A DNA stretch of 64,000 nucleotides from GCF_054482525.1 NZ_CM137006.1; one strand, 5' to 3'; counted from the stretch's first letter, positions 13,189 through 48,263 are shown. The notes: generated by a model from the sequence alone, not told the origin. Program-made: numbers and translations.

Positions 13189-13203
13189 TTACCCTAAAGG
13201 TAT
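13189..13203. promoter_or_regulatory. TTACC-N5-GGTAt palindromic motif (variant) upstream of integrase
   Basis: Read directly: TTACCctaaaGGTAT. Confidence 0.35.
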
Positions 13204-13245
13204 ACTCTCATACCGTCATGAAAATGGTTTCTATACGGGTGAATT

Positions 13246-14496
13246 GTGCTTACCGATACAAAATTAAAAAACCTCAAGCCGCAGGACAAACTGTACAAGG
13301 TCTCCGATCGTGACGGGCTGTATGTAGCTGTGCTTACGTCAGGCACGGTCTCGTTTCGCTATGACTACCGTATCAACGGTCGTCGCGAAACACTGGTAAT
13401 CGGGCAGTATGGGCGTGACGGTATCAGCCTGGCAGAAGCGCGAGAAGAACTGATTGCTGCAAAGAAGCTGCTTAAAGCAGGCCAGTCGCCGGCTGCGGCT
13501 AAACGTGACGGTATCAAAAAGATTCGTGGTGCCGAGACGTTTGCGGTACATACCGACAGTTATATGAAACACGTCATCCTGGCTGACAGTACCCGCGCAA
13601 TGAAGCAGGCGGTGATTGACCGTGACATACTTCCGGTTCTTGGTAACAAAATGATGGCTGAAATTACCACATCGATGGTTCGTGATTTGTGTGACCGGAT
13701 TGTCGAACGCGGTGGTCGGGCAACAGCAGTACAGGCCAGGGAGATCATCAGCAGCGTATACCGTCACGCCAATGACCGTGGTCATGGTTTGTTTAATCCT
13801 GCGGCTGACATTAAACCTTCGTCTATCGCCATATTTAAACCACGAGAGCGAACACTGACACCAGAAGAAATTGGCCTGTTCTTCCGCACGCTGGATGCCA
13901 TTGGTGCTATGGGCACTATGAAAATGGCTTTAAAGCTGGTGCTTATCACTATGGTTCGTAAAGGCGAATTCACCAACGCAACGTGGGATGAAATAGATTT
14001 TAAAAAATGGACATGGACAATTCCTTCAGACCGCATGAAGGGAAGCCGGGCGCACGTTATTTACCTGCCTAAACAGGCTCAGGATATATTGGTCGGGTTG
14101 CAGATGTGCGCTGGTGGAAGTGAATATCTGGTTCCTGGTCGTTACAATTTCCGGAAGCCATTATCTAATGCCGCGCTGAACTCTCTGATCGACAGAACGG
14201 TGAAAATAATAAATGAAGATGGTGAGCATATTCAGGGCTTCACCGTACACGATATGCGCCGTACAGCCAGTACGTTGTTGCATGAGGCTGGTTATCCTTC
14301 AGACTGGATTGAAAAGGCTCTGGCACATGAGCAGAAAGGTGTGCGCGCCGTATATAACAAAGCGGAATACGCCAGACAGCGCGCCTACATGTTGCAGCAG
14401 TGGGCCGATATGATTGATTCCTGGATTAACGGGGAGCATACGGATCTGATTCCGTTCTCCCCGTCGAAGTTTGAGAAGTGGATGGCGGGGGAATAA
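13246..14496 (+). CDS. int: Tyrosine integrase (P4-type, with N-terminal arm-binding domain)
   Basis: 416 aa ORF with GTG start; N-terminus typical of P4-family integrases; catalytic-domain R...HDMRRT...Y pattern. Confidence 0.85.
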   Translation: MLTDTKLKNLKPQDKLYKVSDRDGLYVAVLTSGTVSFRYDYRINGRRETLVIGQYGRDGISLAEAREELIAAKKLLKAGQSPAAAKRDGIKKIRGAETFAVHTDSYMKHVILADSTRAMKQAVIDRDILPVLGNKMMAEITTSMVRDLCDRIVERGGRATAVQAREIISSVYRHANDRGHGLFNPAADIKPSSIAIFKPRERTLTPEEIGLFFRTLDAIGAMGTMKMALKLVLITMVRKGEFTNATWDEIDFKKWTWTIPSDRMKGSRAHVIYLPKQAQDILVGLQMCAGGSEYLVPGRYNFRKPLSNAALNSLIDRTVKIINEDGEHIQGFTVHDMRRTASTLLHEAGYPSDWIEKALAHEQKGVRAVYNKAEYARQRAYMLQQWADMIDSWINGEHTDLIPFSPSKFEKWMAGE

Positions 14497-14690
14497 CGTT
14501 TAATAGTTCTGCTGATTTTCTTCCATCTCTGCTTCTGCTGCCAGTGATTCAATTTTGTTTTCGAATATTGCTGACAGTGTTGCAAATTCAGCATCAGTGA
14601 CAGCGGGAATTGGAACAAACCTGATCCCGCTGTGTGCAAGCATGTTTGCAGTTTCAAGGCATTTTCTTAAATCTGCTGGTGATGCCCTGT

Positions 14691-15353
14691 TCATGCAGCA
14701 CGCTCCCGCCCCTGGTTGTCTGTTGGTGACATCGGAGAATTGCTGAATGCATTTGTTAATCCGCCAATATCCAACGCGTATCCTGGGTGTAGTTGCACTG
14801 CCGGGCCTTCGCACTGGTTACCCCAAACATCGAAGCCATGAGACGTCTGGCGGGCGAACAGTTCAATGCGAGAAACATCGCCTAACAATTGCACAAGTTT
14901 TTCACGAACGACATCTGGTTTTCTTGAATGCTCAAGCCGCGGTGCGGTAAATGACTGAACGATACCTGCATTAATGCGCGGAGGTAGTTTTCCCTTTACT
15001 GCAAACAGGCAATCTTCACTATTGGCGCGAGTCATGTGTCCCATACCCATAACCAGTTTATCTGGTTGTCGACTACCACATTTTATCCACGTGAAGCCCT
15101 TCATGGTCATCAGACGGAATCCCCAGGCTTCAACAACTTTTAGTGCTTCGAGTGGTTGTGTTGGCACCCACCACATGGCCAACAGACAGTTTTCATCGGC
15201 CAAATCCCACACAGGAAGGCGGCAGATATCCAGCACACTCATAACAGGATATTTAAAACCGGCACCGCGATTACCATCTGCGGCTTTGTCCCGGTATACC
15301 CAGGGTGGATCTGCATAGATTAGTGTGTATTTCTTAGTCATAAACCACCCCAC
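14691..15353 (-). CDS. DNA N6-adenine methyltransferase, MT-A70-like (orphan)
   Basis: 220 aa ORF; LIYADPPW motif IV; no adjacent restriction endonuclease candidate. Confidence 0.7.
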   Translation of the reverse strand: MGWFMTKKYTLIYADPPWVYRDKAADGNRGAGFKYPVMSVLDICRLPVWDLADENCLLAMWWVPTQPLEALKVVEAWGFRLMTMKGFTWIKCGSRQPDKLVMGMGHMTRANSEDCLFAVKGKLPPRINAGIVQSFTAPRLEHSRKPDVVREKLVQLLGDVSRIELFARQTSHGFDVWGNQCEGPAVQLHPGYALDIGGLTNAFSNSPMSPTDNQGRERAA

Positions 15354-15633
15354 AACATCCTATGCCGCTATAGTCGCCACGGCGAAGGCCGTTACCTTTT
15401 GTGATACATTGGTCCCTGCGAACCGCGATCCTTGCACGTTCAACATCACCAGAAGCAACATCCATACACTGAAGCCAAAGGTGAGCGGCAATGCGGAATT
15501 GCCCTTTTTTCTCTCTTTCAATCGCGCGTTTTTCGATCTCTATCGCCGCAGGAGTAACGGCGACAATCTTTGAAGGGCTGCGCATTGAAACCTTGTTCAT
15601 GTGATATTTTTCAAGTCGGCTTAACTTTCTCAC
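15334..15633 (-). CDS. Hypothetical phage protein
   Basis: 99 aa ORF in early-left operon overlapping methylase start; start codon uncertain. Confidence 0.35.
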   Translation of the reverse strand: MRKLSRLEKYHMNKVSMRSPSKIVAVTPAAIEIEKRAIEREKKGQFRIAAHLWLQCMDVASGDVERARIAVRRDQCITKGNGLRRGDYSGIGCCGVVYD

Positions 15634-15742
15634 TTAATCCAACCCTCTCTGAAAATTAATGCCAGCAGATAAAGCCATGCTGAAACAGAGGCCAGGAATA
15701 AGTACCATCCTGACCATTTGCTCCAGTGCCTTAGCAGCACAC

Positions 15743-15991
15743 TCATGCAGCGTTGCTCACAGGACGATATACACGTTGCTGAACAGGAGGCTTTTTACCC
15801 TGGAACTCTGCCGGGCTTGCTGCCTGACGTTCATCAAGCCAACGCTCAACTTCATCACGGTTCCATGCGCAGCGTTTATCGGTGATATACCAGCGTTTAG
15901 GAAATTCCCCTGCGCGCTCCATACGGTCGATAGTGCTCCATGACAGTGGCACCACCGCCAGGAGTTCCTTCTTACCTAATGCACCTTTCAT
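15743..15991 (-). CDS. AlpA-family phage transcriptional regulator / excisionase-like
   Basis: 82 aa; HTH region resembling AlpA (STIDRMERAGEFP...WLDE). Confidence 0.6.
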   Translation of the reverse strand: MKGALGKKELLAVVPLSWSTIDRMERAGEFPKRWYITDKRCAWNRDEVERWLDERQAASPAEFQGKKPPVQQRVYRPVSNAA

Positions 15992-16040
15992 AAATACCTC
16001 TCTTGGTTGCAGTGCGGCGCGCGTGGCGCCGCGGTGGTGG

Positions 16041-16922
16041 TTACATAGATGTTTCGTTTAATTCTTCCCGACGAACGCTGTAAACGTCGGTGGCTTTTGC
16101 CAGCAGTTCGTCATCATCTGAAAGTTTTTGTGCAATGTATTTGTAAGCCTTATCCAGTTCGGAGACAGTGCTGTAATTCATCGCTGCGCTGGTAAAGGCC
16201 ATCAGCATTTCTTCTGGCTCACGGCTATCCGCTTTACGCGTTTGCTCATCAGGCTTTTTCACTGATTTAGCGTTGATCAGACTGTTCATTCCCGCAGCCG
16301 TAGTCATTTGCGGAGTAATGTCTCGCTCAACGCGCGGTGCCGTTTCCTGTAATTCGTCAGGGGTGTAAACACCGAGAAGTACATCAGGAGCGTGCAGGCG
16401 AGCCCATCGTTTCGTGCAAAGATAGGCAAGTTGCTGGCGCGGATCCTGTTCCCACAATGGAGAGTTACGCACTCCTGCTTGCGCCATACTGATGGTAAGC
16501 TCACGTGGTTCTGCTTCTCCTTTAAGAACTGCTGACACAGTTACCGTCAGATTCGGTGATTTATCTGTTTTGCCGTTAACATTCGACCAGTCACCGCTCC
16601 AGCGATAATTCAGGCGTGTCGCCAGCAGGCTGGAAGAGGATACGACCGCGTTTACCAACTGTGCTTCGTAGCCTAACGTTCCGTTTACCACATGCGTTTT
16701 CTGCGCCACGGCGAAAGGGTTCATTCCCCACTGTGCCGCCTGCATGGTCACCGCCAGGCAATCGGCAGGTTTGCCTTCAAGATGTTTCGGTACAGTCGCT
16801 TTGCTTTGTGACATCAACTCCGCGAAACGCACCAGTTGATTCATGCCCTCGGGGCTGAAGATTGCCGCAGCAGTGCCTACAGTTGCGCCTGGTTGTGATG
16901 TGATTGCGATATCATTGCTCAT
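16041..16922 (-). CDS. RecT/Red-beta family single-strand annealing protein
   Basis: 293 aa; resemblance to lambda Bet core (QWGMNPF...RWARL); coupled to upstream exonuclease. Confidence 0.65.
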   Translation of the reverse strand: MSNDIAITSQPGATVGTAAAIFSPEGMNQLVRFAELMSQSKATVPKHLEGKPADCLAVTMQAAQWGMNPFAVAQKTHVVNGTLGYEAQLVNAVVSSSSLLATRLNYRWSGDWSNVNGKTDKSPNLTVTVSAVLKGEAEPRELTISMAQAGVRNSPLWEQDPRQQLAYLCTKRWARLHAPDVLLGVYTPDELQETAPRVERDITPQMTTAAGMNSLINAKSVKKPDEQTRKADSREPEEMLMAFTSAAMNYSTVSELDKAYKYIAQKLSDDDELLAKATDVYSVRREELNETSM

Positions 16923-18051: not shown

Positions 18052-18272
18052 ATCTCGTTATCGTTGGCCACATCGCGAGCTTCTTTGCTGACGAAAGCCC
18101 ACTTAATACCTTCCTGTAAGGTGCGGAACTTCCAGCTCATGAATCCGCATGCAGTAACGCAGTACCAACCGTTGATGATTTTCCACTGCATAACTTGTTA
18201 CCTCGGTTTGTTACCGTTGAGGTAATGATTATGCGTATTTGGTTTGGTGTCAATAGATATGAGTTAAAAAAA

Positions 18273-18287
18273 TTACCCACAAGGTAA
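18273..18287. promoter_or_regulatory. TTACC-N5-GGTAA motif at the early-left promoter position (OL-like)
   Basis: TTACCcacaaGGTAA between repressor 3' end and start of leftward operon. Confidence 0.5.
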
Positions 18288-18344
18288 TCTTGCTGGCAAT
18301 AAAAAAGCCGCCATGAGGCGGCTTACTTGCTGAAAACTATAGTT

Positions 18345-18929
18345 TTATTGTTTGCTTTTTTCGTTCTGGTTGATGACAAATTCAATGTAACTTTCGATCT
18401 TTGCTTTCTCGGTTTCGGGTAACAATGCGTAGCGCGAGCGGTCATAGTTGATAGTCGCAGGGTCGTGCGGGTGAATCAGTAATTCATAGCCGTGACGCCC
18501 GAATGCGGATGCAACATTCTCCAGGGTGGAAATGGAAACGCTGACCTCATTGTTTAACAGGCGGCTGATTGTCACCTGGGCGACGCCGGATGCGCGGTGA
18601 AGTTTTCCCTGTGTTGAAAGGTCGCGGCTTTCGCTCATCCAGCGTTCCAGGTTGTGAGCCGCCAGCTGACCAATGTCGCTTGGGCCGACAGGCTGAAAAC
18701 CTTCCTGAGAAAGCGAGCGATCGATATCAAGCCAGTTACGGGGTTTATTGGCGGCAGCTTCAATTTTTCGCGCAACCTGGTCGCCGATAACCTTCTTACC
18801 AAGAGCCCAGCGGTTTACCAGATTTGCCTGAGTTCCAAGTTTTTCTGCCATCCGCGTCTGAACACCATTGAATTCACGGTCGATCAAGTCGTTGAGATTT
18901 TGCCTGCGGACGTCCTGGATACTTTTCAT
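18345..18929 (-). CDS. Prophage repressor, two HTH domains, no LexA-like peptidase domain
   Basis: 194 aa; two HTH-like segments; divergent from Cro-like gene; no GxSM/K autocleavage motif seen. Confidence 0.6.
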   Translation of the reverse strand: MKSIQDVRRQNLNDLIDREFNGVQTRMAEKLGTQANLVNRWALGKKVIGDQVARKIEAAANKPRNWLDIDRSLSQEGFQPVGPSDIGQLAAHNLERWMSESRDLSTQGKLHRASGVAQVTISRLLNNEVSVSISTLENVASAFGRHGYELLIHPHDPATINYDRSRYALLPETEKAKIESYIEFVINQNEKSKQ

Positions 18930-18984
18930 TTTCTGGAAAATCGCCTCATATATGAATCAGTAGATGATTCAATTTAAAGCAATA

Positions 18985-19047
18985 TTACCCAACAGGTAAA
19001 TGCACCCCATAGGTAACTATCCTTGATTTTTGTTACCTTATGGGTGA
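18985..19047. promoter_or_regulatory. Operator region between repressor and cro-like gene: TTACCcaacaGGTAA (18985-18999) and TTACCttatgGGTgA (19033-19047)
   Basis: Two palindromic sites in the divergent promoter region. Confidence 0.55.
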
Positions 19048-19083
19048 ATATTTATTATCTGAAATAAATATCAGGCAATAGCT

Positions 19084-19314
19084 ATGAGCGATAACGGACA
19101 TTTCGATTTCAAAAAGCACTGGCTTGCACTTACTCCGGATGAGCGTGAAGCCTTCGCACAGGAAGCCGGAACGACGAGTCACTATATACAGACTCACTTA
19201 ACAGGTAAGCGCAAAATGCCAGGTAAGGTATTGATGAATGGGCTTTTTAAAGCCTGTAAAACAAGACAATGGCTGCGCTCAAAAGCAGAACTGGCATACT
19301 TCTTCTACTCATGA
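19084..19314 (+). CDS. Cro-like HTH regulator
   Basis: 76 aa; HTH segment; divergent from repressor. Confidence 0.55.
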   Translation: MSDNGHFDFKKHWLALTPDEREAFAQEAGTTSHYIQTHLTGKRKMPGKVLMNGLFKACKTRQWLRSKAELAYFFYS

Positions 19315-19336
19315 TATCCAGCCACAACCCTCTGTA

Positions 19337-19360
19337 GACCGCCACCCGGCGGTCTTTTCA
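19337..19360 (+). terminator. Rho-independent terminator after cro-like gene
   Basis: GACCGCC-accc-GGCGGTC followed by TTTT. Confidence 0.6.
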
Positions 19361-19369
19361 TATCTATTC

Positions 19370-19384
19370 GTACCTCAAAGGTAA
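19370..19384. promoter_or_regulatory. gTACC-N5-GGTAA motif (variant) after cro terminator
   Basis: GTACCtcaaaGGTAA. Confidence 0.35.
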
Positions 19385-19462
19385 TAAAAAACCAAATCTG
19401 GTTGATCAAATTTTCCAATTGTGCAAAATAGCCAATATCAATAACAAAAAGGGGCGGAAAAA

Positions 19463-19675
19463 TTGAAGATAGTAACCAGAATGGAGGCCGCAAAAGCCGG
19501 GTTAAATCGCTATTTCACAGGAAAGCGGTGCCGTCACGGCCATCTCTCTGAAAGGTATGTTCTGAACGGAACATGTGTTGAATGTGCAATGAATAGCGCC
19601 AACCGCCATCGTAATGAATTTGCTTGTGCACTAAAGAGTGCAAGAGGGGAAACCTATGGCAAGCAGCTGGATTAA
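19463..19675 (+). CDS. Small Cys/His-rich protein (cII position)
   Basis: 70 aa, TTG start with AAGGGG RBS; C..H..C..C pattern. Confidence 0.4.
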   Translation: MKIVTRMEAAKAGLNRYFTGKRCRHGHLSERYVLNGTCVECAMNSANRHRNEFACALKSARGETYGKQLD

Positions 19676-21234: not shown

Positions 21235-21271
21235 TACCAGCGCGATAGCGCATTTTTTTACGCCTACATGA

Positions 21272-21286
21272 TTACCTGTTGGGTAA
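21272..21286. promoter_or_regulatory. TTACC-N5-GGTAA motif
   Basis: TTACCtgttgGGTAA downstream of P-like gene. Confidence 0.45.
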
Positions 21287-21333
21287 TAAAATGTTCTAAT
21301 CTCTATTGATTTCATGTCTTATGTGGTTTTTAA

Positions 21334-21348
21334 TTACCTAAGGGGTAA
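21334..21348. promoter_or_regulatory. TTACC-N5-GGTAA motif immediately upstream of DUF1064 gene
   Basis: TTACCtaaggGGTAA ending 4 nt before ATG at 21352. Confidence 0.45.
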
Positions 21349-21351
21349 ATC

Positions 21352-21696
21352 ATGAGAAAACAGATACAGGCTCTTGGTCGACTCAAAACAGGCCAAATGA
21401 ACAAAACAGAATCTGCGTATTGCCAGCACCTTGAGCTGCGTAAACGTGCAGGAGAAATCGTCTGGTATCGATTTGAGGGTATCAAGCTGCGGTTAGCTGA
21501 CAACACGTTCTATACGCCCGATTTTGCTGTGATGCTCGCCACCGGCGAGATGGAACTGCACGAAGTGAAAGGTTTCTGGACCGACGACGCCAGGGTGAAA
21601 ACCAAAGTCGCCGCAGATCAGTATCCGTTCCGAATCATCGGGGTAACGGTTAAACCAAAGAAAGCAGGTGGTGGCTGGAACATCGAAGAGTTCTGA
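21352..21696 (+). CDS. DUF1064-family phage protein
   Basis: 114 aa; recalled DUF1064 pattern (FYTPDF...HEVKG). Confidence 0.55.
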   Translation: MRKQIQALGRLKTGQMNKTESAYCQHLELRKRAGEIVWYRFEGIKLRLADNTFYTPDFAVMLATGEMELHEVKGFWTDDARVKTKVAADQYPFRIIGVTVKPKKAGGGWNIEEF

Positions 21697-23295: not shown

Positions 23296-23296
23296 T

Positions 23297-25215: not shown

Positions 25216-25565
25216 TGGACTATTCACAGTTAAGTGATTTTGAAATTAACAGAATGGTAGGAGACATAATTTTTAAAGGCCTTTGGGCGTGTAAACCGGA
25301 AACATCAGGGAATAACACCAACAAATGGTATTACGGAAATACTGATACAACTTTTGAGCCATTAAACCCTTTACCTGACTACTGCAATAATCCATCGGAT
25401 GCATGGCCTATTATTGTTGATAATAAAATCAGTCTAACCTGCCACCAATCTCGCGGTGAGTGGTCAGCTGTTTTTAATGTCGAGAACATTTGCTTTCATG
25501 CGAATAATCCACTCCGAGCCGCCATGATTGTATTTCTCATGATGCAGGAAAATCAGAATGGCTAA
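25212..25565 (+). CDS. Hypothetical phage protein (NinX/DUF2591-like?)
   Basis: 117 aa ORF; weak recall only. Confidence 0.35.
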   Translation: MMDYSQLSDFEINRMVGDIIFKGLWACKPETSGNNTNKWYYGNTDTTFEPLNPLPDYCNNPSDAWPIIVDNKISLTCHQSRGEWSAVFNVENICFHANNPLRAAMIVFLMMQENQNG

Positions 25566-25896
25566 ATCAGCAGCAGAGCGCAAAGCCGCTCAGAGAGCCA
25601 GACAAGCTGCATCTGGTGTGCGTAAGCTGGAGATTGTGCTTGATGCTCAGGAAATTGAAATGCTTGAGCGTAACTGTGCCGCACGTCGCCCCGGGCGTGC
25701 GCCTTACGAATTTGGTGAGTATATAGCGTTACTGATCCGCCAGGATGATGCACGCGTGCGCGGGCGTATAAAATCGATCAGTAGAAAACGTTGCGGTAAG
25801 TGCGGCGAGAGAGTTCCCGTTAATTCATGCCCGTGTAATGGTGACTCGCAATGCTGGGTGACTAAAGGCTGGTATGAAACGAAATTAATAGTGTGA
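25558..25896 (+). CDS. Hypothetical protein with C-terminal zinc-ribbon; candidate late-gene regulator
   Basis: 112 aa; CGKCG...CPCNGDSQC; last gene before late operon. Confidence 0.3.
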   Translation: MAKSAAERKAAQRARQAASGVRKLEIVLDAQEIEMLERNCAARRPGRAPYEFGEYIALLIRQDDARVRGRIKSISRKRCGKCGERVPVNSCPCNGDSQCWVTKGWYETKLIV

Positions 25897-25982
25897 CATG
25901 TCACGAGTAGATTATGCATGATGAATTTGACGGGTTTTGAATACTGCCGCCAACTATGGCGGCTTTATTTTGCATGGTACTA

Positions 25983-26015
25983 TTACCACAACGGTAACTA
26001 TTACCACGGTGGTTA
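25983..26015. promoter_or_regulatory. Tandem TTACC-N5-GGTAA sites abutting terminase small subunit start
   Basis: TTACCacaacGGTAA (25983-25997) and TTACCacggtGGTtA (26001-26015). Confidence 0.45.
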
Positions 26016-26611
26016 TGATGCCTGCTGAACCTAAAACCTATAAACGCAAATCAACGCAATTTAAGCCACTAACAGCAATGCAGGAGGCTTATTGCCAGTC
26101 ATACATCAAAACGCCTGAAAACCAGACTCAGGCAGCGATTAACGCAGGATTCTCCCCAAATACAGCGGCAGTTAAAGCCAGTGTCATGATGCGCGATGAA
26201 CGCATTCAGAAACGGATTGCCGAGTTGATGGAGGAGCGCAACAAACGAATGCGCGTCAGTGCTGATTACGTTCTCATGCGCCTGGTGGAGATCGACCAGA
26301 TGGACGTTATCGACATCCTCAACGACGATGGGAGCCTTAAACCAATCCGTGAGTGGCCGAAAATCTGGCGCACTACGCTTAGTGGCTTTGATCTGTCATC
26401 GACCATCATGAACATGAACGAGGATTCGATAGAGACAATCCTCAAAAAAATTAAATGGCCTGACAAGGTGAAGAACCTTGAGCTGATTGGTAAGCATGTT
26501 GATGTCAATGCGTTCAAAGAACGTCTGGATGTTAATGTGAATGTGACAATTGCTGATCGCATAGCGGCAGCCAGGAAGAGACTGAAAGAACGTCAGGATG
26601 GCAATCAGTGA
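26015..26611 (+). CDS. Terminase small subunit
   Basis: Start placed at MMPAEPK within ORF 25937-26611; HTH-like N-terminal region; precedes large subunit with 4-nt overlap. Confidence 0.6.
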   Translation: MMPAEPKTYKRKSTQFKPLTAMQEAYCQSYIKTPENQTQAAINAGFSPNTAAVKASVMMRDERIQKRIAELMEERNKRMRVSADYVLMRLVEIDQMDVIDILNDDGSLKPIREWPKIWRTTLSGFDLSSTIMNMNEDSIETILKKIKWPDKVKNLELIGKHVDVNAFKERLDVNVNVTIADRIAAARKRLKERQDGNQ

Positions 26612-28794: not shown

Positions 28795-28871
28795 TGGCGC
28801 GGCATGCAGGATTCGAACCTGCGACCAACCGCTTAGAAGGCGGTTGCTCTGTCCAACTGAGCTAATGCCAC
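28795..28871 (-). tRNA. tRNA-Arg (anticodon UCU), phage-encoded
   Basis: Hand-folded cloverleaf: 7-bp acceptor stem, D-arm GCTC/GAGC, anticodon loop CTTCTAA, T-arm GCAGG-TTCGAAT-CCTGC, 3' CCA encoded. Confidence 0.85.
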
Positions 28872-29193: not shown

Positions 29194-29208
29194 TTACCTG
29201 AAAGGTAA
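29194..29208. promoter_or_regulatory. TTACC-N5-GGTAA motif upstream of portal region
   Basis: TTACCtgaaaGGTAA. Confidence 0.45.
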
Positions 29209-29298
29209 TAATTCGTGCGTTAAATGTCAACTGTCTACGATAAATAAATCATATGTGGTTAAATTGGTAATAATTTAATTGCGTACGGAGTCATTGAT

Positions 29299-42797: not shown

Positions 42798-42802
42798 ATT
42801 AA

Positions 42803-45277
42803 ATGAGACAGGAATGTATACAAGCGGTCCAGCAGGCGGCGCAGCGCACGTTAACGGCGCGAGAAATACAGAACATTGAAGACCGCATTTATCGAAATAT
42901 GCGCTCCATTGCTCGTGATGACCCGATGTCGTGGCGACAACTTTCCGAATCAGAACGGTTGTATCGTGCAGCACAATTGGCATCTGAAGAATTACAGCGA
43001 GAAGCGGCATTAAAGAAACGTCGTGTGGCCCTCACTATAGCCGCACGTCAGAGATTGGATAAATTTATCAATAGCTATCAAGGGGCTGATGGGAAACTTG
43101 GCGCTCTTAACCGTACTATTGCTTTTAATGCAGACGGTAAATCGAATTTCCTCTCTGTTGAATCCAGAACAAAAGCCACCCGTGATTATGCATTGAGTCA
43201 ATTGCAGGAGGCATTCGAAGCAGTTGATCCTCGCTTTTTTGGTCTGTTTGAAGATGAAGCGGGCGTACGTGACCTGATATATGAAATGCGGGGGCAAAAT
43301 ACTGGCAATGCTAAAGCAAGAAAAGGTGCTAAGGCGTGGAGAGAAGTTACAGAGCTGCTGCGCCGCCGGTTTAATGATGCTGGTGGGGACATTGGCTATC
43401 TCGAAAACTGGGGGATCCCTCAACATCATTCTATGGAAAAGGTTGGGGCGGTATCAAAAGATAAATGGGTTAGCGATGTTATAGGTAAGCTGGATCGCAA
43501 ATATTATACCCGAGCCGATGGACAACTGATGAACGATGCCGAGTTGTCTGCATTTCTTGGAGAGGCTTATAACACGATCGCTACTGGTGGGCTGAATAAG
43601 CTTACTGATACCGGAATGCGAATTTCCGGCGCACGTGCTAACCGTGGTAATGCATCACGACAGATACATTTCAAAGATGCAGATTCCTATCTGCAATATC
43701 AGCAACTTTATGGCGATCGCTCTCTATGGGAAATCATGGTCGGTCACCTGGAAGGTATCAGTAAAGATATTGCACTGGTGGAAACATATGGTCCAAACCC
43801 CGATCATGTTTTCCGCTCTCTTCTTGATCAGGTGAAGGCAGAAACGGCAACAGCTAACCCGAGTAAAACCGGTAAAGTCGAGCGGCTGGCGAACAACACA
43901 GAGAATCTGTACAACTTTATTTCCGGAAAGACACAGCCTGTAGCGAATCCGCACATCGCGCGATGGTCTGACAATATCCGCAACTGGCTGGTTGCCAGCA
44001 GACTCGGATCCGCGTTGCTGTCATCGTTCTCTGATCTTGGAACCATGTATCTGTCTGCGAAGGTTACCAACCTTCCAATGAACCAGTTATTCCGCAACCA
44101 GCTTGAAGCTATGGACCCAACGAACCGTACAGAACTTGCGCGGGCGCGCCGCGCTGGTCTGGCGATGGAATCTCTACTTGGCAGCGTTAACCGCTGGGCG
44201 ATGGATAATATGGGGCCGTCTGTGTCTCGTTGGGCTGCAACGGCGGTAATGCGTGCCAGTGGGCTTACAGCATGGTCAGATGCGCACAAGCGCGCCTATG
44301 GCGTAACCATGATGGGAAGCCTGGGAGAAGTAGTGTCACGGACACCAGACCTTCGTCGCCTCGATGACTCTGATTTTCGTATCCTGAAAAGCAAAGGGAT
44401 TACTGACACAGACTGGAGCGTATGGAAGTTGGCGCAACAGGAGGACTGGGGGAACGGTAATAATACGATGCTGACACCGGAAAGCATTATGCGTATCCCT
44501 GATTCAGCAGTTAAACATCTTGGTGAGCCTGAACGCGTGAAATTTGAGGCAATGCGTAAACTGCTCGGTGCCGTAACTGAAGAAGTTGATATGGCTGTTA
44601 TTACACCGGGAGCACGTGAGCAACTGATAACCGGTTCTGGTATTCAGCGTGGAACATGGAAAGGTGAATTAACGAGAAGTGTTTTCCTGTTTAAATCGTT
44701 CCCTATCTCGGTTGTTATGCGTCACTGGTCACGCGCTATGGGTATGCCGTCTGCTGGTGGGCGTGCGGCATATATTGCGACGTTTATTGCCAGTACGACC
44801 ATTCTTGGCGCTTTGTCGCAACAACTTAACGACCTTGCGTCTGGTCGTAATCCTCGAGAGATGACAGGAGAAGATGCTGCTAAATTTTGGCTTGGTGCTC
44901 TACTGAAAGGTGGTGGTCTTGGCCTTTACGGTGACTTTTTATTGTCAGATCACACTAGGTACGGGAGCGGCGCGCTGGCGTCGATGCTTGGCCCGGTAGC
45001 TGGTCTGGTTGATGACGTAGTGAAGATAGCTCAGGGCATACCGCTAAATGCTGTGGAAGGGAAGAGTGAGCAGACTGGTGGTGATCTGGTGAAGCTGGGG
45101 AAAGGTTTGATGCCAGGTGCGAATCTCTGGTACTTGAAGGCGGCTCTCGATCACATGATCTTTAATCAGATGCAGGAGTATTTTTCACCAGGCTATTTGC
45201 GTAAAATGGAGCAACGTTCGAAGAAAGAGTTTAACCAGACATACTGGTGGCGACCTCAGGATGTCACTCCGCAATAA
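42803..45277 (+). CDS. Internal virion / ejection protein
   Basis: 824 aa ORF. Confidence 0.5.
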   Translation: MRQECIQAVQQAAQRTLTAREIQNIEDRIYRNMRSIARDDPMSWRQLSESERLYRAAQLASEELQREAALKKRRVALTIAARQRLDKFINSYQGADGKLGALNRTIAFNADGKSNFLSVESRTKATRDYALSQLQEAFEAVDPRFFGLFEDEAGVRDLIYEMRGQNTGNAKARKGAKAWREVTELLRRRFNDAGGDIGYLENWGIPQHHSMEKVGAVSKDKWVSDVIGKLDRKYYTRADGQLMNDAELSAFLGEAYNTIATGGLNKLTDTGMRISGARANRGNASRQIHFKDADSYLQYQQLYGDRSLWEIMVGHLEGISKDIALVETYGPNPDHVFRSLLDQVKAETATANPSKTGKVERLANNTENLYNFISGKTQPVANPHIARWSDNIRNWLVASRLGSALLSSFSDLGTMYLSAKVTNLPMNQLFRNQLEAMDPTNRTELARARRAGLAMESLLGSVNRWAMDNMGPSVSRWAATAVMRASGLTAWSDAHKRAYGVTMMGSLGEVVSRTPDLRRLDDSDFRILKSKGITDTDWSVWKLAQQEDWGNGNNTMLTPESIMRIPDSAVKHLGEPERVKFEAMRKLLGAVTEEVDMAVITPGAREQLITGSGIQRGTWKGELTRSVFLFKSFPISVVMRHWSRAMGMPSAGGRAAYIATFIASTTILGALSQQLNDLASGRNPREMTGEDAAKFWLGALLKGGGLGLYGDFLLSDHTRYGSGALASMLGPVAGLVDDVVKIAQGIPLNAVEGKSEQTGGDLVKLGKGLMPGANLWYLKAALDHMIFNQMQEYFSPGYLRKMEQRSKKEFNQTYWWRPQDVTPQ

Positions 45278-45286
45278 GGAAGTGTT

Positions 45287-45460
45287 GTGTTTTTAATTAT
45301 TTTGAGTGTGATAATTTCTGGTGGATTGTTATTTATTGACCGCTACAAATATTTTCTTAACCCTCAGACTCAAGCTATTTGCTGGTTCATCTTTGTTGTG
45401 CAGGGAGTAGTTCTTGTTGCAAGCCTTATTGAGGGGAGGCCTCTTATTTTTACTGGGTAA
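45287..45460 (+). CDS. Small membrane protein (2 predicted TM)
   Basis: 57 aa hand-translated ORF, GTG start 6 nt after AAGGA RBS. Confidence 0.35.
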   Translation: MFLIILSVIISGGLLFIDRYKYFLNPQTQAICWFIFVVQGVVLVASLIEGRPLIFTG

Positions 45461-45472
45461 ATAGGTGACTAC

Positions 45473-45769
45473 ATGCAAGCTATAGGATTCATTGTTTATA
45501 TCGTCGTTGGTCTTTTTCAGTTGGCAGCAATTATGGCTGGGCTTGAATCATGGTGGGGATTGCACTGGATAATTGCAGCCCCCATTGCTTTCATCGTGAG
45601 CTATATTCCATTTGTTGGAGCGATTGTTGGTATGGTTGGCGCTGTGGATGTATGGCGGTGGGAGTGGTGGCAGGCTGGCCTTCTCTTCTTTGGTGGGATC
45701 ATCTTTGCTATTGTCTGCGGTGGAATGTCATCATTTTTCGAATGGCTATCATTCAGAAAAGGGACGTGA
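45473..45769 (+). CDS. Small membrane protein (about 3 TM)
   Basis: 98 aa hydrophobic ORF. Confidence 0.5.
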   Translation: MQAIGFIVYIVVGLFQLAAIMAGLESWWGLHWIIAAPIAFIVSYIPFVGAIVGMVGAVDVWRWEWWQAGLLFFGGIIFAIVCGGMSSFFEWLSFRKGT

Positions 45770-46032
45770 CATGTCACAGGCCGCTTTCGCGGCCTTGTTT
45801 TTAACGAATGCCACCGCCGCCCGGACGGGAATCCGCAGAACGCCCACCGCAGCGGGAGCCGTCAGCGGCAGTATCGCTGTCGTGCTGACAACGACCGGCA
45901 AAGGCCTGAGTTGAAGCTACCAGAGACAACAAAACGAACAGTGCAGCAAATGCTTTTTTCATTGTGAAATTTCCATCTATAAGCCACCTCAATGTGGCGT
46001 CAATGAGTGTAGCACTGACTTTTGTTTCGTCC

Positions 46033-46055
46033 ACAAAAAATCCCGCAGCGCGGGC
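46033..46055 (-). terminator. Rho-independent terminator of the minus-strand cargo operon
   Basis: Minus strand reads GCCCGC-GCT-GCGGG-A-TTTTTT directly after toxin stop codon. Confidence 0.7.
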
Positions 46056-46601
46056 TTATTCCTTCCATTTATCAGAAAAAAGATCTTCTTCTAAAGGCAT
46101 TGGTTCTGTTTTTGTTTTCTCAAAGAATTGATAACTGATAGTGATTGCTGCCTCTTTAAACTCTTCTTGCTCAGTTATGTTGTGGGCATCTGCGTCAACA
46201 AAAAACATAACCAGCGCATCACGATTGTGATTTACCGAATAAACTAAAAAGCAATTACTTGTTGGTATGCATTTTACTTGCACAGACGCTATTTTTTTCC
46301 ATGCATCCCAAGATGATTTTTTACCAGTGTGTTTTTTATCACTATCTTCTGGAATATAGTCTTGGTTATCGACATGAGTATGCCTGACATTTAGTTTAAG
46401 CATTTCTGTCGGACGAGCAAATGCAGCATCTTTACCAAGAGATGGATGGTATCCCGTTTTCCAATACTGGGTAAAGGCATCAGATACTTTCTTCAGCTCA
46501 AGATCAGATGCACAAAGGGCCGAGAAATTTTGCGTATGCAATACTCGACCCTTATATCTGACAATTTGATTTTTATCATTCTGCGACGCAGACGAACTCA
46601 T
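46056..46601 (-). CDS. YafO-like toxin candidate with N-terminal extension
   Basis: 181 aa from ATG with AAGGA RBS; C-terminal part resembles recalled YafO core. Confidence 0.4.
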   Translation of the reverse strand: MSSSASQNDKNQIVRYKGRVLHTQNFSALCASDLELKKVSDAFTQYWKTGYHPSLGKDAAFARPTEMLKLNVRHTHVDNQDYIPEDSDKKHTGKKSSWDAWKKIASVQVKCIPTSNCFLVYSVNHNRDALVMFFVDADAHNITEQEEFKEAAITISYQFFEKTKTEPMPLEEDLFSDKWKE

Positions 46602-46755
46602 AATTTTCCTTATTGTTACGAGAATCAAAGAAAGCGCGGGATACGCGACTTGCGTGATCTTTTGTCATAGTAACTTTTACGCACTCTACGCTTCCATTGA
46701 AAGAACGTCTTGCGGCAGCTTGCGCTCTACGCATCTGCAATTTTTCGTTTCGCAT
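46576..46755 (-). CDS. Small basic protein, candidate antitoxin/regulator
   Basis: 59 aa hand-translated ORF (below ORF-track cutoff) with GAGGT RBS; 3' end overlaps toxin start by 26 nt. Confidence 0.3.
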   Translation of the reverse strand: MRNEKLQMRRAQAAARRSFNGSVECVKVTMTKDHASRVSRAFFDSRNNKENYEFVCVAE

Positions 46756-46815
46756 GACATTACCTCATATCTCATAAGTTCATTACACGGATTAATAAAA
46801 ATGAAACCAATCCGT

Positions 46816-46830
46816 TTACCCTTGAGGTAA
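46816..46830. promoter_or_regulatory. TTACC-N5-GGTAA motif upstream of small ORF/toxin pair
   Basis: TTACCcttgaGGTAA. Confidence 0.45.
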
Positions 46831-46902
46831 TAGTACGCTATTCACCCACAGTCTGCAATCTGTACAGAATTATTTAAAGGCACATCCCTGTGCCGCCGCC
46901 CG

Positions 46903-47598
46903 TCAGAAGAACCCTGCCTTGTCGTTGATGTACTCCGCGTGCGTCTGGATATCACGCAGGCATTTGCTCACACCGACGATGTAGCAGAACATGGTGGTCA
47001 GCTCCGCCGCCGCGCCCGATACGTCGTGCCCGTCGTCCTGTAACTGGTTCAGCAGATTCATCAGCAGTGAGTTCTCCGTCAGGCCGAGAACACCAGACGG
47101 CGAATGAATCAGGCTGCGGTAGCCGGGCTTCAGTGGGGCACTGTAGGTTTTGTTCTCTATCTTCATCGCCTGCATCACTGCTGATGCTGTGGCGTTGGCT
47201 ACCTGGTCGGCAACCATCTTTATGCGCTCTTCCTGCGGGAGCGAGTTTTTAATGTAACTTCCGGTGCGGCGGATCTGAGGAAGAACCTCACCTGTAACCC
47301 ATTTACGAAAGCGGTATGGGATAGTGCCTGGTGTCACTGCGTCGCGGCAGCGGAGGATCAGTGTGTAGAGGCCTGACTCGGAGATGATGATCGATTCTTG
47401 CTCACCGCCAGGGGTGTCGGTTGAAGCGACGCCCTTCTCATCATCATCAAGTTTTCGAACAGCATCTCGATGGTTTGCTATGCCTATAGCCCGACAAACA
47501 TCTGAAGCGATAAACCATGGCTCACCATTAATGACGATTACTCGTATATCGGCTTGGGATTCGAAAGAAAAAATGGACGTGCTTTTTGTAGCTGTCAT
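46903..47598 (-). CDS. BRO-N domain antirepressor-like protein
   Basis: 231 aa; N-terminal Bro-N-like pattern (INGEPWFIASDVCRAIG); C-terminal domain paralogous to ORF 47914-48171. Confidence 0.6.
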   Translation of the reverse strand: MTATKSTSIFSFESQADIRVIVINGEPWFIASDVCRAIGIANHRDAVRKLDDDEKGVASTDTPGGEQESIIISESGLYTLILRCRDAVTPGTIPYRFRKWVTGEVLPQIRRTGSYIKNSLPQEERIKMVADQVANATASAVMQAMKIENKTYSAPLKPGYRSLIHSPSGVLGLTENSLLMNLLNQLQDDGHDVSGAAAELTTMFCYIVGVSKCLRDIQTHAEYINDKAGFF

Positions 47599-47867
47599 AG
47601 TGGTTACCTTTTAGTCTGGTTAATCACCACTACCGACGCCAATCGGTTGGTGGTGAGCTGTGCAGGGTTGGCGTAACCGGCTAAAAGGACCCGGCGCACC
47701 TTTCGGTGCCCCCACACAGCCCACCATAATACGAATGTGGCCGTGCTATACGCATAAAAAAACCGCTTGCGCGGTGAATGCGCCTTTTAGTAATCCGGGA
47801 CGCCAATCCCGGCACTGGATTTTGCCAGTGCCCGATTACTATGGCACAAGAGGAGTGCGATGTAAAT

Positions 47868-47882
47868 TTACCGCAAAGGTAA
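47868..47882. promoter_or_regulatory. TTACC-N5-GGTAA motif upstream of BRO-N gene
   Basis: TTACCgcaaaGGTAA. Confidence 0.45.
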
Positions 47883-47913
47883 ATATAAGCACTTCATTTG
47901 GTAATTGCAAACC

Positions 47914-48171
47914 TTATCTGGTTTGTTTTCGTAATTGTTCGGCACAATAGTCGAGATGTGTTTGCAGATCCTGCATAGACATCTGTGAGCTGGTGACGTA
48001 GTTAATCAGTGCAGTCAGTTCGGCAAGTGGGCCATCGACATTAAATCCATCCTTATCTAGATCCCGGAGTAATTTCATCAAGTGCGATCCCTCCACCAGT
48101 GACTTGACGCCTCCCGGCGTGTGAATCCTTTCGGTAAATCCGTCTTCCAGTGGATAGTGATACTGCTGCAT
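47914..48171 (-). CDS. Small LexA-controlled protein, Tum-like antirepressor candidate
   Basis: 85 aa from ATG with GGAG RBS; ~45% identity by eye to C-terminal 60 aa of adjacent BRO-N protein; LexA box upstream. Confidence 0.5.
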   Translation of the reverse strand: MQQYHYPLEDGFTERIHTPGGVKSLVEGSHLMKLLRDLDKDGFNVDGPLAELTALINYVTSSQMSMQDLQTHLDYCAEQLRKQTR

Positions 48172-48191
48172 CTTAATCTTCTCCATGCAAT

Positions 48192-48211
48192 AACTGTATA
48201 TTTATACAGTA
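48192..48211. promoter_or_regulatory. LexA (SOS) box AACTGTATATTTATACAGTA
   Basis: CTGT-N8-ACAG with AT-rich spacer, near-consensus; upstream of minus-strand gene 47914-48171. Confidence 0.75.
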
Positions 48212-48248
48212 TCAAATAATTTGTTTGCTATCCAGCACGTTTTGCAAA

Positions 48249-48263
48249 TTACCTAAAAGGTAA
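48249..48263. promoter_or_regulatory. TTACC-N5-GGTAA motif in divergent region between cargo operon and tailspike
   Basis: TTACCtaaaaGGTAA. Confidence 0.45.

What the first reader, a model, noticed from the sequence alone, without database searches (positions are those of the whole stretch)
13189..48263. A 15-bp palindrome TTACC-N5-GGTAA recurs at 13 intergenic sites across the prophage
Nine perfect sites (18273, 18985, 21272, 21334, 25983, 29194, 46816, 47868, 48249) plus four one-mismatch variants (13189, 19033, 19370, 26001), all intergenic and all within the prophage. Chance expectation for a 10-specified-base palindrome in 40 kb is about 0.04. Sites sit at the classical operator positions (repressor/cro divergent region and the leftward early promoter) but also before int, the DUF1064 operon, terminase small subunit, portal, the antirepressor/toxin cargo operon and the tailspike. 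That is far broader than a lambda-type CI operator set, so either the repressor directly silences nearly every prophage transcription unit, or the motif belongs to another phage factor (a late activator, or part of a phage-specific promoter).
Basis: seen in the sequence. Interest (0 to 1): 0.75.

Follow-up and report, generated by a model that had tools for sequence, protein, structure and literature searches.

The report
Prophage repressor operators, genome-wide set
The repeated palindrome TTACC-N5-GGTAA is the binding site (operator) of the repressor of an epsilon15/phiV10-type prophage, placed at almost every promoter of the phage; it is real and conserved, but the same sites are already annotated in the type phage of the genus.

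Summary
All lie in non-coding DNA of a 40.6-kb guaA-integrated Uetakevirus prophage (13039-53600). None occurs in 23 kb of host flank or 100 kb of E. coli K-12.

The motif and its positions recur in phiV10, Tyrion, a Klebsiella phage, epsilon15 and SPC32H. The half-sites are invariant and the spacers drift.

The epsilon15 GenBank record already labels seven of these sites as repressor-binding. The 194-aa repressor here is a homolog of SPC32H Rep (PDB 5D50). That protein is a tetramer inactivated by a LexA-controlled antirepressor, which is also present here behind a LexA box.

New supporting evidence: in unrelated Pseudomonas siphoviruses, cI shares only the Rep N-terminal HTH domain. Those cI genes are flanked by TTACC-N4-GGTAA (55 sites in 19 loci, none at other spacings).

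The geometry indicates repression. Sites abut or overlap the -10 or lie in the promoter spacer, and pairs exactly 62 bp apart bracket two promoters.

The late-activator and promoter-element alternative is not. Caveats: the pre-int site is doubtful, the lysis operon has no site, and sites at late promoters lie upstream of the core promoter. This is known biology with modest new detail.

The parts
18345..18929 (-). Repressor gene rep (194 aa): N-terminal HTH DNA-binding domain, middle HTH-like dimerisation domain, C-terminal tetramerisation/Ant-binding region
   Evidence: E 3.5e-42 to SPC32H Rep (PDB 5D50_A) over residues 1-190. Pfam finds HTH_3/HTH_26 only and no S24 peptidase; 99.5% identical to the phiV10 and ZX5 repressors.
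18211..18225 (.). OL1: operator abutting the -10 of the leftward early promoter PL and covering +1
   Evidence: PL = TTGACA 18253-18248, 17 bp, AATCAT 18230-18225; invariant in 6 phages.
18273..18287 (.). OL2: upstream operator of PL, 62 bp from OL1 (centre about -62), just after the rep terminator
   Evidence: 62-bp spacing in 147 pairs from 77 unique related loci.
18985..18999 (.). OR3-type operator next to the rep side of the rep/cro divergent region; overlaps a possible PRM -35 (TTTACC-17-TTAAAT on the minus strand, inferred)
19002..19016 (.). OR2-type site, degenerate here (GCACCccataGGTAA) but perfect in epsilon15, SPC32H and the Klebsiella phage; 17 bp from OR3
   Evidence: 17-bp spacing in 56 loci.
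19033..19047 (.). OR1-type operator (TTACCttatgGGTGA) filling the -35/-10 spacer of the rightward promoter PR (TTGATT 19023-19028, GAATAT 19046-19051; the tool's alternative is TTGTTA-17-TATTAT at 19030-19058)
   Evidence: The site is imperfect in every lineage, while the core ACC-N5-GGT is invariant.
19084..19314 (+). Cro-like small repressor, expected to share the operators (inferred)
   Evidence: phrog_35; 58-84% identity across the genus, with the HTH segment AGTTSHYIQTHLTG invariant.
19370..19384 (.). Weak operator (GTACC..GGTAA) after the cro terminator, upstream of the replication-operon promoter. The right half is invariant and the left half is imperfect in all lineages.
21272..21286 (.). 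Upstream operator of the DUF1064/RuvC-operon promoter (P3), placed after the replication-operon terminator
21334..21348 (.). Downstream operator of P3, 62 bp from 21272. It abuts the -10 (TTGATT 21306-21311, 17 bp, TTTAAT 21329-21334), and its spacer carries the Shine-Dalgarno sequence for the ATG at 21352.
25983..25997 (.). Operator abutting the -10-like TACTAT (25978-25983, preceded by TG) of the terS promoter, just after a terminator
26001..26015 (.). Second terS operator (1 mismatch), 18 bp from the first. Its spacer carries the Shine-Dalgarno sequence for the terS ATG at 26018.
   Evidence: The same pair occurs in phiV10, Tyrion and epsilon15.
29194..29208 (.). Operator in the divergent region between the leftward tRNA-Arg/p03 unit and the rightward gp3/portal structural operon. 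It overlaps the -10 of a leftward TTGACA(29230-29225)-17-TACCTT promoter and lies 56 bp upstream of the late-promoter block.
   Evidence: Epsilon15 annotates the homologous site as repressor-binding.
46816..46830 (.). Operator abutting the -10 of a leftward cargo promoter (TTGCAG 46858-46853, 17 bp, TACTAT 46835-46830) for genes 46576-46755 and 46056-46628
   Evidence: plus the sequence read. The promoter reading is my own: it matches 7 of 12 consensus positions, below the scan threshold.
47868..47882 (.). Operator abutting the -10 of the leftward promoter TTGCAA(47910-47905)-17-TATATT(47887-47882), which drives the Bro-N/Ant-like fusion gene 46903-47598
   Evidence: Homologous sites occur in phiV10 (20497), Tyrion (21393) and the Klebsiella phage (17377).
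48249..48263 (.). Operator in the ant/tailspike divergent region. It lies 44 bp upstream of the tailspike late-promoter block and about 57 bp upstream of the inferred ant transcription start.
   Evidence: Epsilon15 annotates the homologous site as repressor-binding.
13189..13203 (.). Doubtful site before int (TTACC..GGTAT). The mismatch is invariant in six phages. The site lies inside the inverted repeat GACGGTAT (13182-13189) / ATACCGTC (13210-13217).
   Evidence: The epsilon15 record labels this stretch integrase-binding and RNase III.
47914..48186 (-). Small antirepressor Ant, which inactivates Rep
   Evidence: 87% identical to SPC32H Ant; PDB 5D50_E, E 1.3e-46.
48194..48209 (.). LexA box CTGTATATTTATACAG just upstream of ant (SOS control of induction)
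   Evidence: CTGTAT..ATACA conserved in six phages.

Best explanation
The palindrome (core ACC-N5-GGT; full form ATTACC-N5-GGTAAT) is the operator of the prophage's own repressor Rep (18345-18929, minus strand). Rep is a member of the epsilon15/SPC32H family.

Binding: each palindrome takes a pair of N-terminal helix-turn-helix domains. Rep is a tetramer, so one molecule can hold two palindromes. These lie either side by side (17-18 bp apart at the rep/cro region and at terS) or exactly 62 bp apart, bracketing a promoter (PL and the DUF1064 operon).

Why so many sites: this genus does not use a lambda-like antitermination cascade. Terminators cut the genome into about 14 separate transcription units, each with its own promoter, and operators sit at 12-13 of them. 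In the lysogen, Rep therefore shuts the early-left, cro, replication, post-replication, terminase and cargo promoters directly by occluding the -10/+1 or the spacer. It also sits next to the portal and tailspike late promoters.

Induction: DNA damage removes LexA from the box in front of ant, and Ant takes the Rep tetramer apart.

Shown here: the sites, their excess, their conservation, their position relative to promoter-like hexamers, the homology of Rep and Ant to the solved SPC32H proteins, and the co-inheritance of the half-site with the Rep N-terminal domain.

Inferred: actual binding at each site, looping between paired sites, repression at the late promoters, and sharing of the sites with the Cro-like protein.
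For: Excess and specificity:
- 10 perfect sites against 0.01 expected, all inside the prophage.
- No perfect site in 123 kb of host DNA.

Conservation:
- The same motif at syntenic positions in phiV10, epsilon15, SPC32H, Tyrion and the Klebsiella phage BUCT711: 13-18 one-mismatch-or-better sites per genome (epsilon15 15, phiV10 14, Tyrion 15, BUCT711 13, each against about 0.5 expected; SPC32H 18)..
- Half-sites are invariant while the spacers vary.

Prior annotation: seven protein_bind 'repressor' features in the curated epsilon15 record coincide exactly with motif hits.

The proteins:
- Rep is homologous to SPC32H Rep, PDB 5D50.
- Ant is 87% identical to SPC32H Ant and has a LexA box in front of it.
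- Citing papers report that SPC32H Rep binds palindromic DNA as a tetramer with an N-terminal DNA-binding domain and a DNA-looping-type tetramerisation domain (PMC9638917, PMC9986798).

Independent comparative test: Pseudomonas siphovirus PseuP_224 and 19 related contigs share only the Rep-like N-terminal domain (about 40% identical), fused to an S24-type C-terminal domain. Their cI genes are flanked by TTACC-N4-GGTAA: 55 sites, and none at spacers of 2, 3, 5, 6, 7 or 8 bp.

Geometry:
- PL TTGACA-17-AATCAT ends on the first base of the operator.
- The same junction occurs at P3, terS, 46816 and 47868.
- An operator lies inside the PR spacer.
- The 62-bp spacing is found in 147 pairs from 77 unique loci.

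Experiment in a close relative: overexpressing the 99.5%-identical ZX5 repressor abolished free phage and cut holin and endolysin transcripts by more than 99.9% (PMC9782041).
Against: - There are no binding data for this prophage.
- The primary SPC32H and epsilon15 papers were not available, so I could not confirm which DNA fragments were tested in vitro.
- At the portal and tailspike late promoters the operator lies 44-56 bp upstream of the conserved late block, not over the core promoter, so direct repression there is uncertain.
- The lysis operon of this prophage has no site, so repression is not needed at every unit.
- The pre-int site has a fixed mismatch and an alternative explanation.
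- The Cro-like proteins of the two phage groups fall in the same broad PHROG family. The comparative test therefore does not fully separate Rep from Cro as the reader of the motif.
Confidence: 0.85

Rival explanations
1. Only the sites at the early promoters (PL, PR/PRM, the replication operon, P3 and perhaps terS) are working operators. The single sites near the portal, tailspike/ant, cargo genes and int do not repress the adjacent late units. Instead they serve other roles: control of the divergent leftward promoters, anchors for long-range bridging by the tetramer, roadblocks to read-through, or relics.
For: - The late promoters carry their own conserved block (CCATATRTGGTT-N7-TAnnAn), and the operator lies 44-56 bp upstream of it at non-constant distances.
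- Site 29194 overlaps the -10 of a leftward TTGACA promoter rather than the rightward late promoter.
- The lysis operon has no site in this prophage.
- The int site has a fixed mismatch and sits in an Int/RNase III-annotated repeat.
Against: - The sites are perfect palindromes conserved at these exact positions in six phages from four host genera while their flanks diverge, so they are under selection.
- The cargo sites 46816 and 47868 abut a -10 exactly as OL1 does.
- The epsilon15 curators annotated them as repressor sites.
Confidence: 0.3
2. The motif is read mainly by the Cro-like protein (19084-19314) and not by Rep.
For: - Cro is more conserved across the genus than Rep (58-84% against 43-78% identity), matching the invariance of the motif.
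- A Cro-like gene also lies beside the motif in the Pseudomonas branch, in the same broad PHROG family.
Against: - The Uetakevirus and Pseudomonas Cro proteins have no detectable pairwise similarity, whereas the Rep/cI N-terminal domains are about 40% identical with an invariant HTH core.
- SPC32H Rep is reported to bind palindromic sites through its N-terminal domain.
- In known lambdoid switches both proteins share the operators, so exclusive binding by Cro is unlikely.
Confidence: 0.05
3. The motif is the binding site of a late-gene activator (for example the 112-aa Zn-ribbon protein 25558-25896), or is part of a phage-specific promoter.
For: - Sites lie upstream of terS, portal and tailspike.
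- The Zn-ribbon protein falls in a PHROG labelled 'transcriptional regulator' and is the last gene before terS.
Against: - Five sites overlap -10/+1 and one fills a promoter spacer, which are repressor positions.
- The densest clusters flank rep and cro.
- The motif recurs beside cI in phages that share none of the late genes.
- The late promoters have a different shared element.
- The Zn-ribbon protein has no informative Pfam or NCBIfam match.
Confidence: 0.03
4. The palindrome is a target of a DNA methyltransferase or restriction system, or a chance or compositional feature.
For: The bipartite form resembles Type I recognition sequences, and the phage encodes an adenine methylase.
Against: - Such targets are not confined to promoter regions, nor held at fixed distances from -10 hexamers.
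- None of 100 shuffles reached the observed count.
- Host DNA has no perfect site.
Confidence: 0.01

Closest known systems
Repressor-binding sites annotated in Salmonella phage epsilon15 (GenBank AY150271.2) and the Rep/Ant/LexA switch of Salmonella phage SPC32H (PDB 5D50, 5D4Z)
   Same: - Same motif at the same syntenic positions.
- Homologous Rep (E 3.5e-42).
- Ant 87% identical, with a LexA box before ant.
- Same genus (Uetakevirus).
   Different: - Rep is only about 43% identical overall; the N-terminal domain is much better conserved.
- This E. coli lineage has a degenerate OR2, lacks the third OL site and the lysis-region site, and has extra operator-controlled cargo promoters (46816, 47868).
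- The epsilon15 record annotates 7 of its 11 perfect sites and omits those between rep and cro.
Lambda-type CI/Cro switch (OR1-3, OL1-3)
   Same: - Divergent repressor and cro genes with three palindromic operators between them.
- A second operator cluster at the leftward early promoter.
- Operators overlap the core promoters.
- The repressor is multimeric and able to bridge sites.
   Different: - Operators lie at eight or more further promoters across the genome.
- There is no S24 autocleavage domain; induction is by an antirepressor.
- No N/Q-type antitermination cascade is evident. Each operon has its own terminator and promoter.
Global repressors of plasmid backbones (KorA/KorB of RK2/RP4)
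   Same: One element-encoded repressor with a palindromic operator repeated at many promoters, silencing most transcription units of a mobile element. This is a resemblance in logic, recalled from the literature (KorA: PMC2665229, listed).
   Different: The proteins are unrelated, the element is a plasmid rather than a phage, and no antirepressor switch is involved.
Mycobacteriophage L5 gp71 'stoperators'
   Same: There are many repressor sites spread over the whole prophage, beyond the immunity region (from general knowledge; multiple asymmetric operators are mentioned in PMC1934351).
   Different: L5 sites are asymmetric, orientation-dependent and act within transcribed regions to stop elongation. 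The sites here are symmetric and sit at promoters.
Rco of Bacillus plasmid pLS20 (TetDloop repressors)
   Same: An N-terminal DNA-binding domain plus a C-terminal p53-like tetramerisation domain that supports DNA looping between operator clusters. PMC9986798 names SPC32H Rep as a structural analogue.
   Different: No sequence similarity in the tetramerisation domain. Looping by the phage Rep has not been shown. The 62-bp promoter-bracketing pairs are inferred here from sequence alone.

Membership tests
Uetakevirus (epsilon15/SPC32H-type) Rep-operator-Ant immunity system | Repressor homologous to SPC32H Rep along its whole length, without an S24 autocleavage domain | tested here: met
   E 3.5e-42 over residues 1-190 of 194. 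Pfam finds HTH domains only; the C-terminal domain differs from the S24-type cI.
Uetakevirus (epsilon15/SPC32H-type) Rep-operator-Ant immunity system | Small antirepressor Ant transcribed from a LexA-controlled promoter next to the tailspike gene | tested here: met
   87% identity to SPC32H Ant (PDB 5D50_E). LexA box at 48194-48209; the box is conserved in six phages.
Uetakevirus (epsilon15/SPC32H-type) Rep-operator-Ant immunity system | Operator motif ATTACC-N5-GGTAAT at the positions annotated as repressor-binding in epsilon15 | tested here: met
   seven annotated features equal motif hits; the sites align column for column with those in the window.
Uetakevirus (epsilon15/SPC32H-type) Rep-operator-Ant immunity system | Physical binding of Rep to these sites and release by Ant | not testable with these tools
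   Only second-hand statements about SPC32H are available. The primary papers are not held.
Lambda-type CI/Cro switch | Divergent repressor/cro genes with a tripartite operator between them and a second cluster at PL | tested here: met
   three sites at 18985, 19002, 19033; two sites at PL.
Lambda-type CI/Cro switch | Operators confined to the immunity region (OL and OR) | tested here: not met
   sites also occur at 21272/21334, 25983, 29194, 46816, 47868 and 48249. In the Pseudomonas branch with S24-type cI, by contrast, sites lie only beside cI.
Lambda-type CI/Cro switch | RecA-stimulated autocleavage of the repressor (S24 peptidase domain) | tested here: not met
   no Peptidase_S24 match; no GNSMEP-type motif, unlike PseuP_224 cI.
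Mycobacteriophage L5-type stoperators | Asymmetric, orientation-dependent sites within transcribed regions | tested here: not met
   The sites are perfect palindromes located at promoters and after terminators.

The most novel reading that the evidence does not exclude
A single tetrameric, p53-like 'TetDloop' repressor may organise the whole 40-kb prophage. It would clamp early promoters between operator pairs held at exactly 62 bp (PL and P3) or in 17-18-bp tandems (OR, terS). It would use the isolated operators at late, cargo and divergent promoters as bridging anchors. The prophage would then be silenced unit by unit, like a plasmid KorA/KorB regulon, rather than by a lambda-type cascade. 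A conserved affinity hierarchy would set the order of derepression: the sites inside PR and after cro are imperfect in every lineage. A Rep-controlled second antirepressor (the Bro-N/Ant fusion, 46903-47598) would give positive feedback on induction.
Probability: 0.3. Interest if true: 0.5.

Novelty: already known. Interest (0 to 1): 0.25.

Why it matters
The result matters mostly as a correct annotation. It assigns the operator set, promoters, antirepressor and SOS input of a common guaA-integrated E. coli prophage type (phiV10, ZX5, HEMP4), whose records lack these features.

Beyond that, PMC9986798 states that how SPC32H-type Rep represses genes has not been extensively characterised. The strict 62-bp promoter-bracketing pairs, the 17-18-bp tandems and the link between the N-terminal domain and the half-site (N5 with the tetrameric Rep, N4 with S24-type cI) give concrete, testable predictions for that question. 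They also provide a compact, portable operator/repressor pair for engineering.

Tried and rejected
- I tried to read the primary papers: epsilon15 genome (Virology 2007; DOI, PMC2698709, PMID), SPC32H (J Virol 2013, PMC3807360) and SPC32H (PNAS 2016, PMC4983836). None is held. Statements about them are therefore second-hand or come from the GenBank record.
- Text searches for the motif in the paper library found nothing relevant.
- The first scan of viral contigs with the Rep N-terminal alignment returned only identical relatives. Re-ranking on the Pseudomonas sequence gave the informative branch.
- I considered a strict second palindrome, AACC-N6-GGTT. It is not significantly enriched as a strict pattern. 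The conserved piece is the asymmetric CCATATRTGGTT block, which I kept as a side observation.
- I considered whether the half-site GGTAA downstream of the portal and tailspike operators forms a second operator. The distances (62, 50 and 53 bp) are not constant and the left half does not match, so I rejected this.
- I tried to place PRM and the ant promoter by eye. The readings are given as inferences only.
- The Zn-ribbon protein gave no informative Pfam or NCBIfam match.

Full report
**Observation.** An exact scan of the window finds 10 perfect TTACC-N5-GGTAA sites: 18211, 18273, 18985, 21272, 21334, 25983, 29194, 46816, 47868 and 48249. Dinucleotide-preserving shuffles expect 0.01. With one mismatch allowed there are 17 sites against 1.3 expected. 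The other three (48481, 51808, 57789) lie in coding or host DNA and fit the background.

The att cores at 13039 and 53584 bound a 40.6-kb prophage at the 3' end of guaA, and every perfect site is inside it. The 23.4 kb of host flank in the window and 100 kb of E. coli K-12 contain no perfect site. K-12 does contain seven one-mismatch sites per 100 kb, so one-mismatch sites count only where position and conservation support them.

**What the element is.** The immunity region is 99.9% identical to Escherichia phage HEMP4 and 97-98% identical to vB_EcoP_ZX5, TL-2011b and phiV10. This is a Uetakevirus, the epsilon15/phiV10 group of temperate podoviruses. The 194-aa protein at 18345-18929 (minus strand) is 99.5% identical to the phiV10 and ZX5 repressors. 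It is a full-length homolog of the Rep protein of Salmonella phage SPC32H, PDB 5D50 (E 3.5e-42). It has helix-turn-helix domains but no S24 peptidase domain.

The small gene 47914-48186 (minus strand) is 87% identical to SPC32H Ant, the other chain of 5D50. It is preceded by a LexA box, CTGTATATTTATACAG, at 48194-48209, and the box is conserved across the genus.

Papers that cite the SPC32H work describe Rep as follows. It is a tetramer that binds palindromic DNA through N-terminal domains drawn from different dimers. It is disassembled by tetrameric Ant (PMC9638917). It carries a C-terminal p53-like, DNA-looping-type tetramerisation domain, and its repression mechanism is 'not extensively characterized' (PMC9986798). 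In ZX5, overexpressing the repressor abolished free phage and cut holin and endolysin transcripts by more than 99.9%. That paper defines no operator (PMC9782041).

**The motif is already annotated.** The curated epsilon15 record (AY150271.2) carries seven protein_bind features labelled 'repressor'. They lie before terS, before gp3/portal, before the tailspike, three to the left of the repressor gene, and one before the post-replication operon. All seven coincide, to within one base at each end, with TTACC-N5-GGTAA hits in that genome. Epsilon15 in fact has 11 perfect sites, including two between rep and cro that the record does not annotate.

Other genomes of the genus carry between 13 and 18 one-mismatch-or-better sites at the same syntenic places: phiV10 14, Tyrion 15, the Klebsiella phage BUCT711 13 (each against about 0.5 expected) and SPC32H 18. 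Alignments of eight orthologous intergenic regions show invariant half-sites with freely varying spacers inside otherwise diverged DNA. That is the signature of a protein-binding site.

**An independent test of who reads the motif.** All Uetakeviruses share the motif, so within the genus it cannot be tied to one protein. A distant tblastn hit, Pseudomonas phage PseuP_224, is a lambdoid siphovirus with HK97-like structural genes and a Q-like antiterminator. Its cI has a Rep-like N-terminal domain (about 40% identical, with an invariant HTH core) fused to an unrelated S24/LexA-type C-terminal domain.

Its cI gene is flanked by four TTACC-N4-GGTAA sites (0.14 expected) and by none with N5. In 19 viral contigs of that branch there are 55 TTACC-N4-GGTAA sites, and none with spacers of 2, 3, 5, 6, 7 or 8 bp. 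The sites lie at fixed offsets beside cI. Conversely, 80 close relatives of the window carry 389 N5 sites and no N4 sites.

So the half-site follows the Rep-type N-terminal domain, and the spacer follows the rest of the protein. In the lambdoid branch the sites stay at the cI flanks, while in Uetakevirus they are spread over the genome.

One caveat: a Cro-like gene also sits beside the motif in the Pseudomonas phage and falls in the same broad PHROG family as the Uetakevirus Cro. The two Cro proteins show no pairwise similarity. Cro probably shares the operators, as in other switches, but Rep is the better-supported reader.

**Geometry.**
- *PL:* TTGACA, 17 bp, AATCAT on the minus strand. The last base of the -10 is the first base of operator 18211. 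A second operator, 18273, lies exactly 62 bp upstream, just after the rep terminator.
- *P3, the promoter of the DUF1064 operon:* the same module. It runs terminator, operator 21272, CTATTGA -35, 17 bp, -10, then operator 21334, again 62 bp apart. The spacer of the downstream operator provides the Shine-Dalgarno sequence.
- *The 62-bp spacing:* it occurs in 147 operator pairs from 77 unique related loci. It is 63 bp at PL in the Klebsiella-type group.
- *Between rep and cro:* three sites at 18985, 19002 (degenerate here, perfect in epsilon15) and 19033. They are 17 and 31 bp apart. The third fills the -35/-10 spacer of PR.
- *terS:* two sites 18 bp apart. The first abuts a TG-TACTAT -10, and the second carries the Shine-Dalgarno sequence for the ATG at 26018.
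- *Cargo promoters:* sites 47868 and 46816 abut the -10 of leftward promoters. These drive a Bro-N/Ant-like fusion gene and an unknown gene.
- *Site 29194:* it overlaps the -10 of a conserved leftward TTGACA promoter that points at tRNA-Arg and the p03 homolog. It lies 56 bp upstream of the late-promoter block of the portal operon.
- *Site 48249:* it lies between the ant and tailspike promoters.

These are repressor positions, not activator positions.

**Limits.**
- The late promoters (portal, tailspike, lysis) share a different conserved block, CCATATRTGGTT followed seven bases later by a -10-like hexamer. The operator lies 44, 47 or 56 bp upstream of it. Direct repression there is therefore not evident from geometry.
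- This prophage has no operator at its lysis operon. The relatives have one there, in a divergent region that also holds leftward conversion genes absent here.
- The site before int keeps its GGTAT mismatch in all six phages. It lies inside the inverted repeat GACGGTAT...ATACCGTC, which the epsilon15 record labels Int-binding and RNase III. I do not count it as an operator.
- The site after cro (19370) and the site inside PR are imperfect in every lineage, with only ACC-N5-GGT invariant. That suggests deliberately weak sites.

**Verdict.** The motif is the Rep operator of an epsilon15/phiV10-type prophage. The breadth of the site set is real, and the architecture of the genus explains it: many terminator-bounded units, each with its own promoter. 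The same set has already been recorded for epsilon15, and the Rep/Ant/LexA switch has been solved for SPC32H, so the finding is known biology.

- the missed tenth site and the third OR site;
- the strict 62-bp promoter-bracketing module;
- operators that double as ribosome-binding regions;
- operator-controlled cargo promoters, including a second antirepressor-like gene;
- the link between the N-terminal domain and the half-site, with a spacer that depends on the oligomerisation domain;
- a separate late-promoter element.

None of these has been tested experimentally.

Noticed in passing
window 29249-29274, 48292-48319, 51612-51638 (also 21317-21328): A second conserved element, CCATATRTGGTT followed seven bases later by a -10-like hexamer, marks the portal, tailspike and lysis promoters. 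It is invariant or nearly so in six phages and has no good -35, so it looks like an activator-dependent late promoter. The binder is unknown; candidates are the Zn-ribbon protein 25558-25896 (phrog_536) and the PerC-like protein 15334-15633.
   Followed up: partly
window 19390-19403 and 47910-47923: Perfect AACC-N6-GGTT palindromes lie next to Rep operators. The one after cro is part of an invariant block, CCAnATnnGGTTGATC, that overlaps the -35 of the replication-operon promoter. As a strict pattern it is not significantly enriched genome-wide.
   Followed up: partly
window 46903-47598 (minus strand): A 231-aa protein combines a Bro-N antirepressor domain with a C-terminus homologous to the small Ant (phrog_450). 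Its promoter is overlapped by operator 47868, so a second antirepressor-like protein may be made once Rep is lifted, which could give positive feedback.
   Followed up: partly
window 28795-28871 (minus strand) and 29202-29230: tRNA-Arg(tct) lies in the terL-portal gap, downstream of a conserved leftward CTATTGACA-type promoter whose -10 region is covered by operator 29194. The tRNA may therefore be under repressor control.
   Followed up: partly
window 51143-51675: This prophage lacks the operator that epsilon15, phiV10, Tyrion and SPC32H carry upstream of the lysis operon. It also lacks the leftward O-antigen conversion genes (oac/gtr/wzy) that face that site in the relatives. A plus-strand 106-aa ORF (51143-51463) sits there instead.
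   Followed up: partly
window 25937-26020: The longest terS ORF starts at TTG 25937, as annotated in phiV10, and would bury both terS operators in coding sequence. Alignment with epsilon15 and Tyrion points to ATG 26018, right after the second operator, whose spacer supplies the Shine-Dalgarno sequence.
   Followed up: yes
window 13182-13217: The inverted repeat GACGGTAT...ATACCGTC encloses the pre-int 'site' and is conserved in six phages. The epsilon15 record labels it integrase-binding and RNase III. It may control int expression rather than bind Rep.
   Followed up: partly
L106-L166 (Klebsiella-type loci), about position 2765; L005 near 7270: The third leftward operator of Klebsiella-type phages is TTACCAAATGGTAA (N4). 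It is a 1-bp deletion of the N5 site found in epsilon15, and it is fixed in about 60 loci.
   Followed up: partly
L006 19661-19891 (minus strand): The PseuP_224 record annotates a plus-strand ORF (19269-19514) upstream of cI but not the Cro-like 76-aa ORF on the opposite strand (phrog_35, E 4e-11). That ORF is the likely cro.
   Followed up: yes
window 13100-13123 and 53623-53650: Near-identical terminator hairpins (AACCCTCTGT...ACAGAGGGTT) follow both att cores. The phage carries a copy of the guaA terminator, so guaA keeps a terminator after integration.
   Followed up: no
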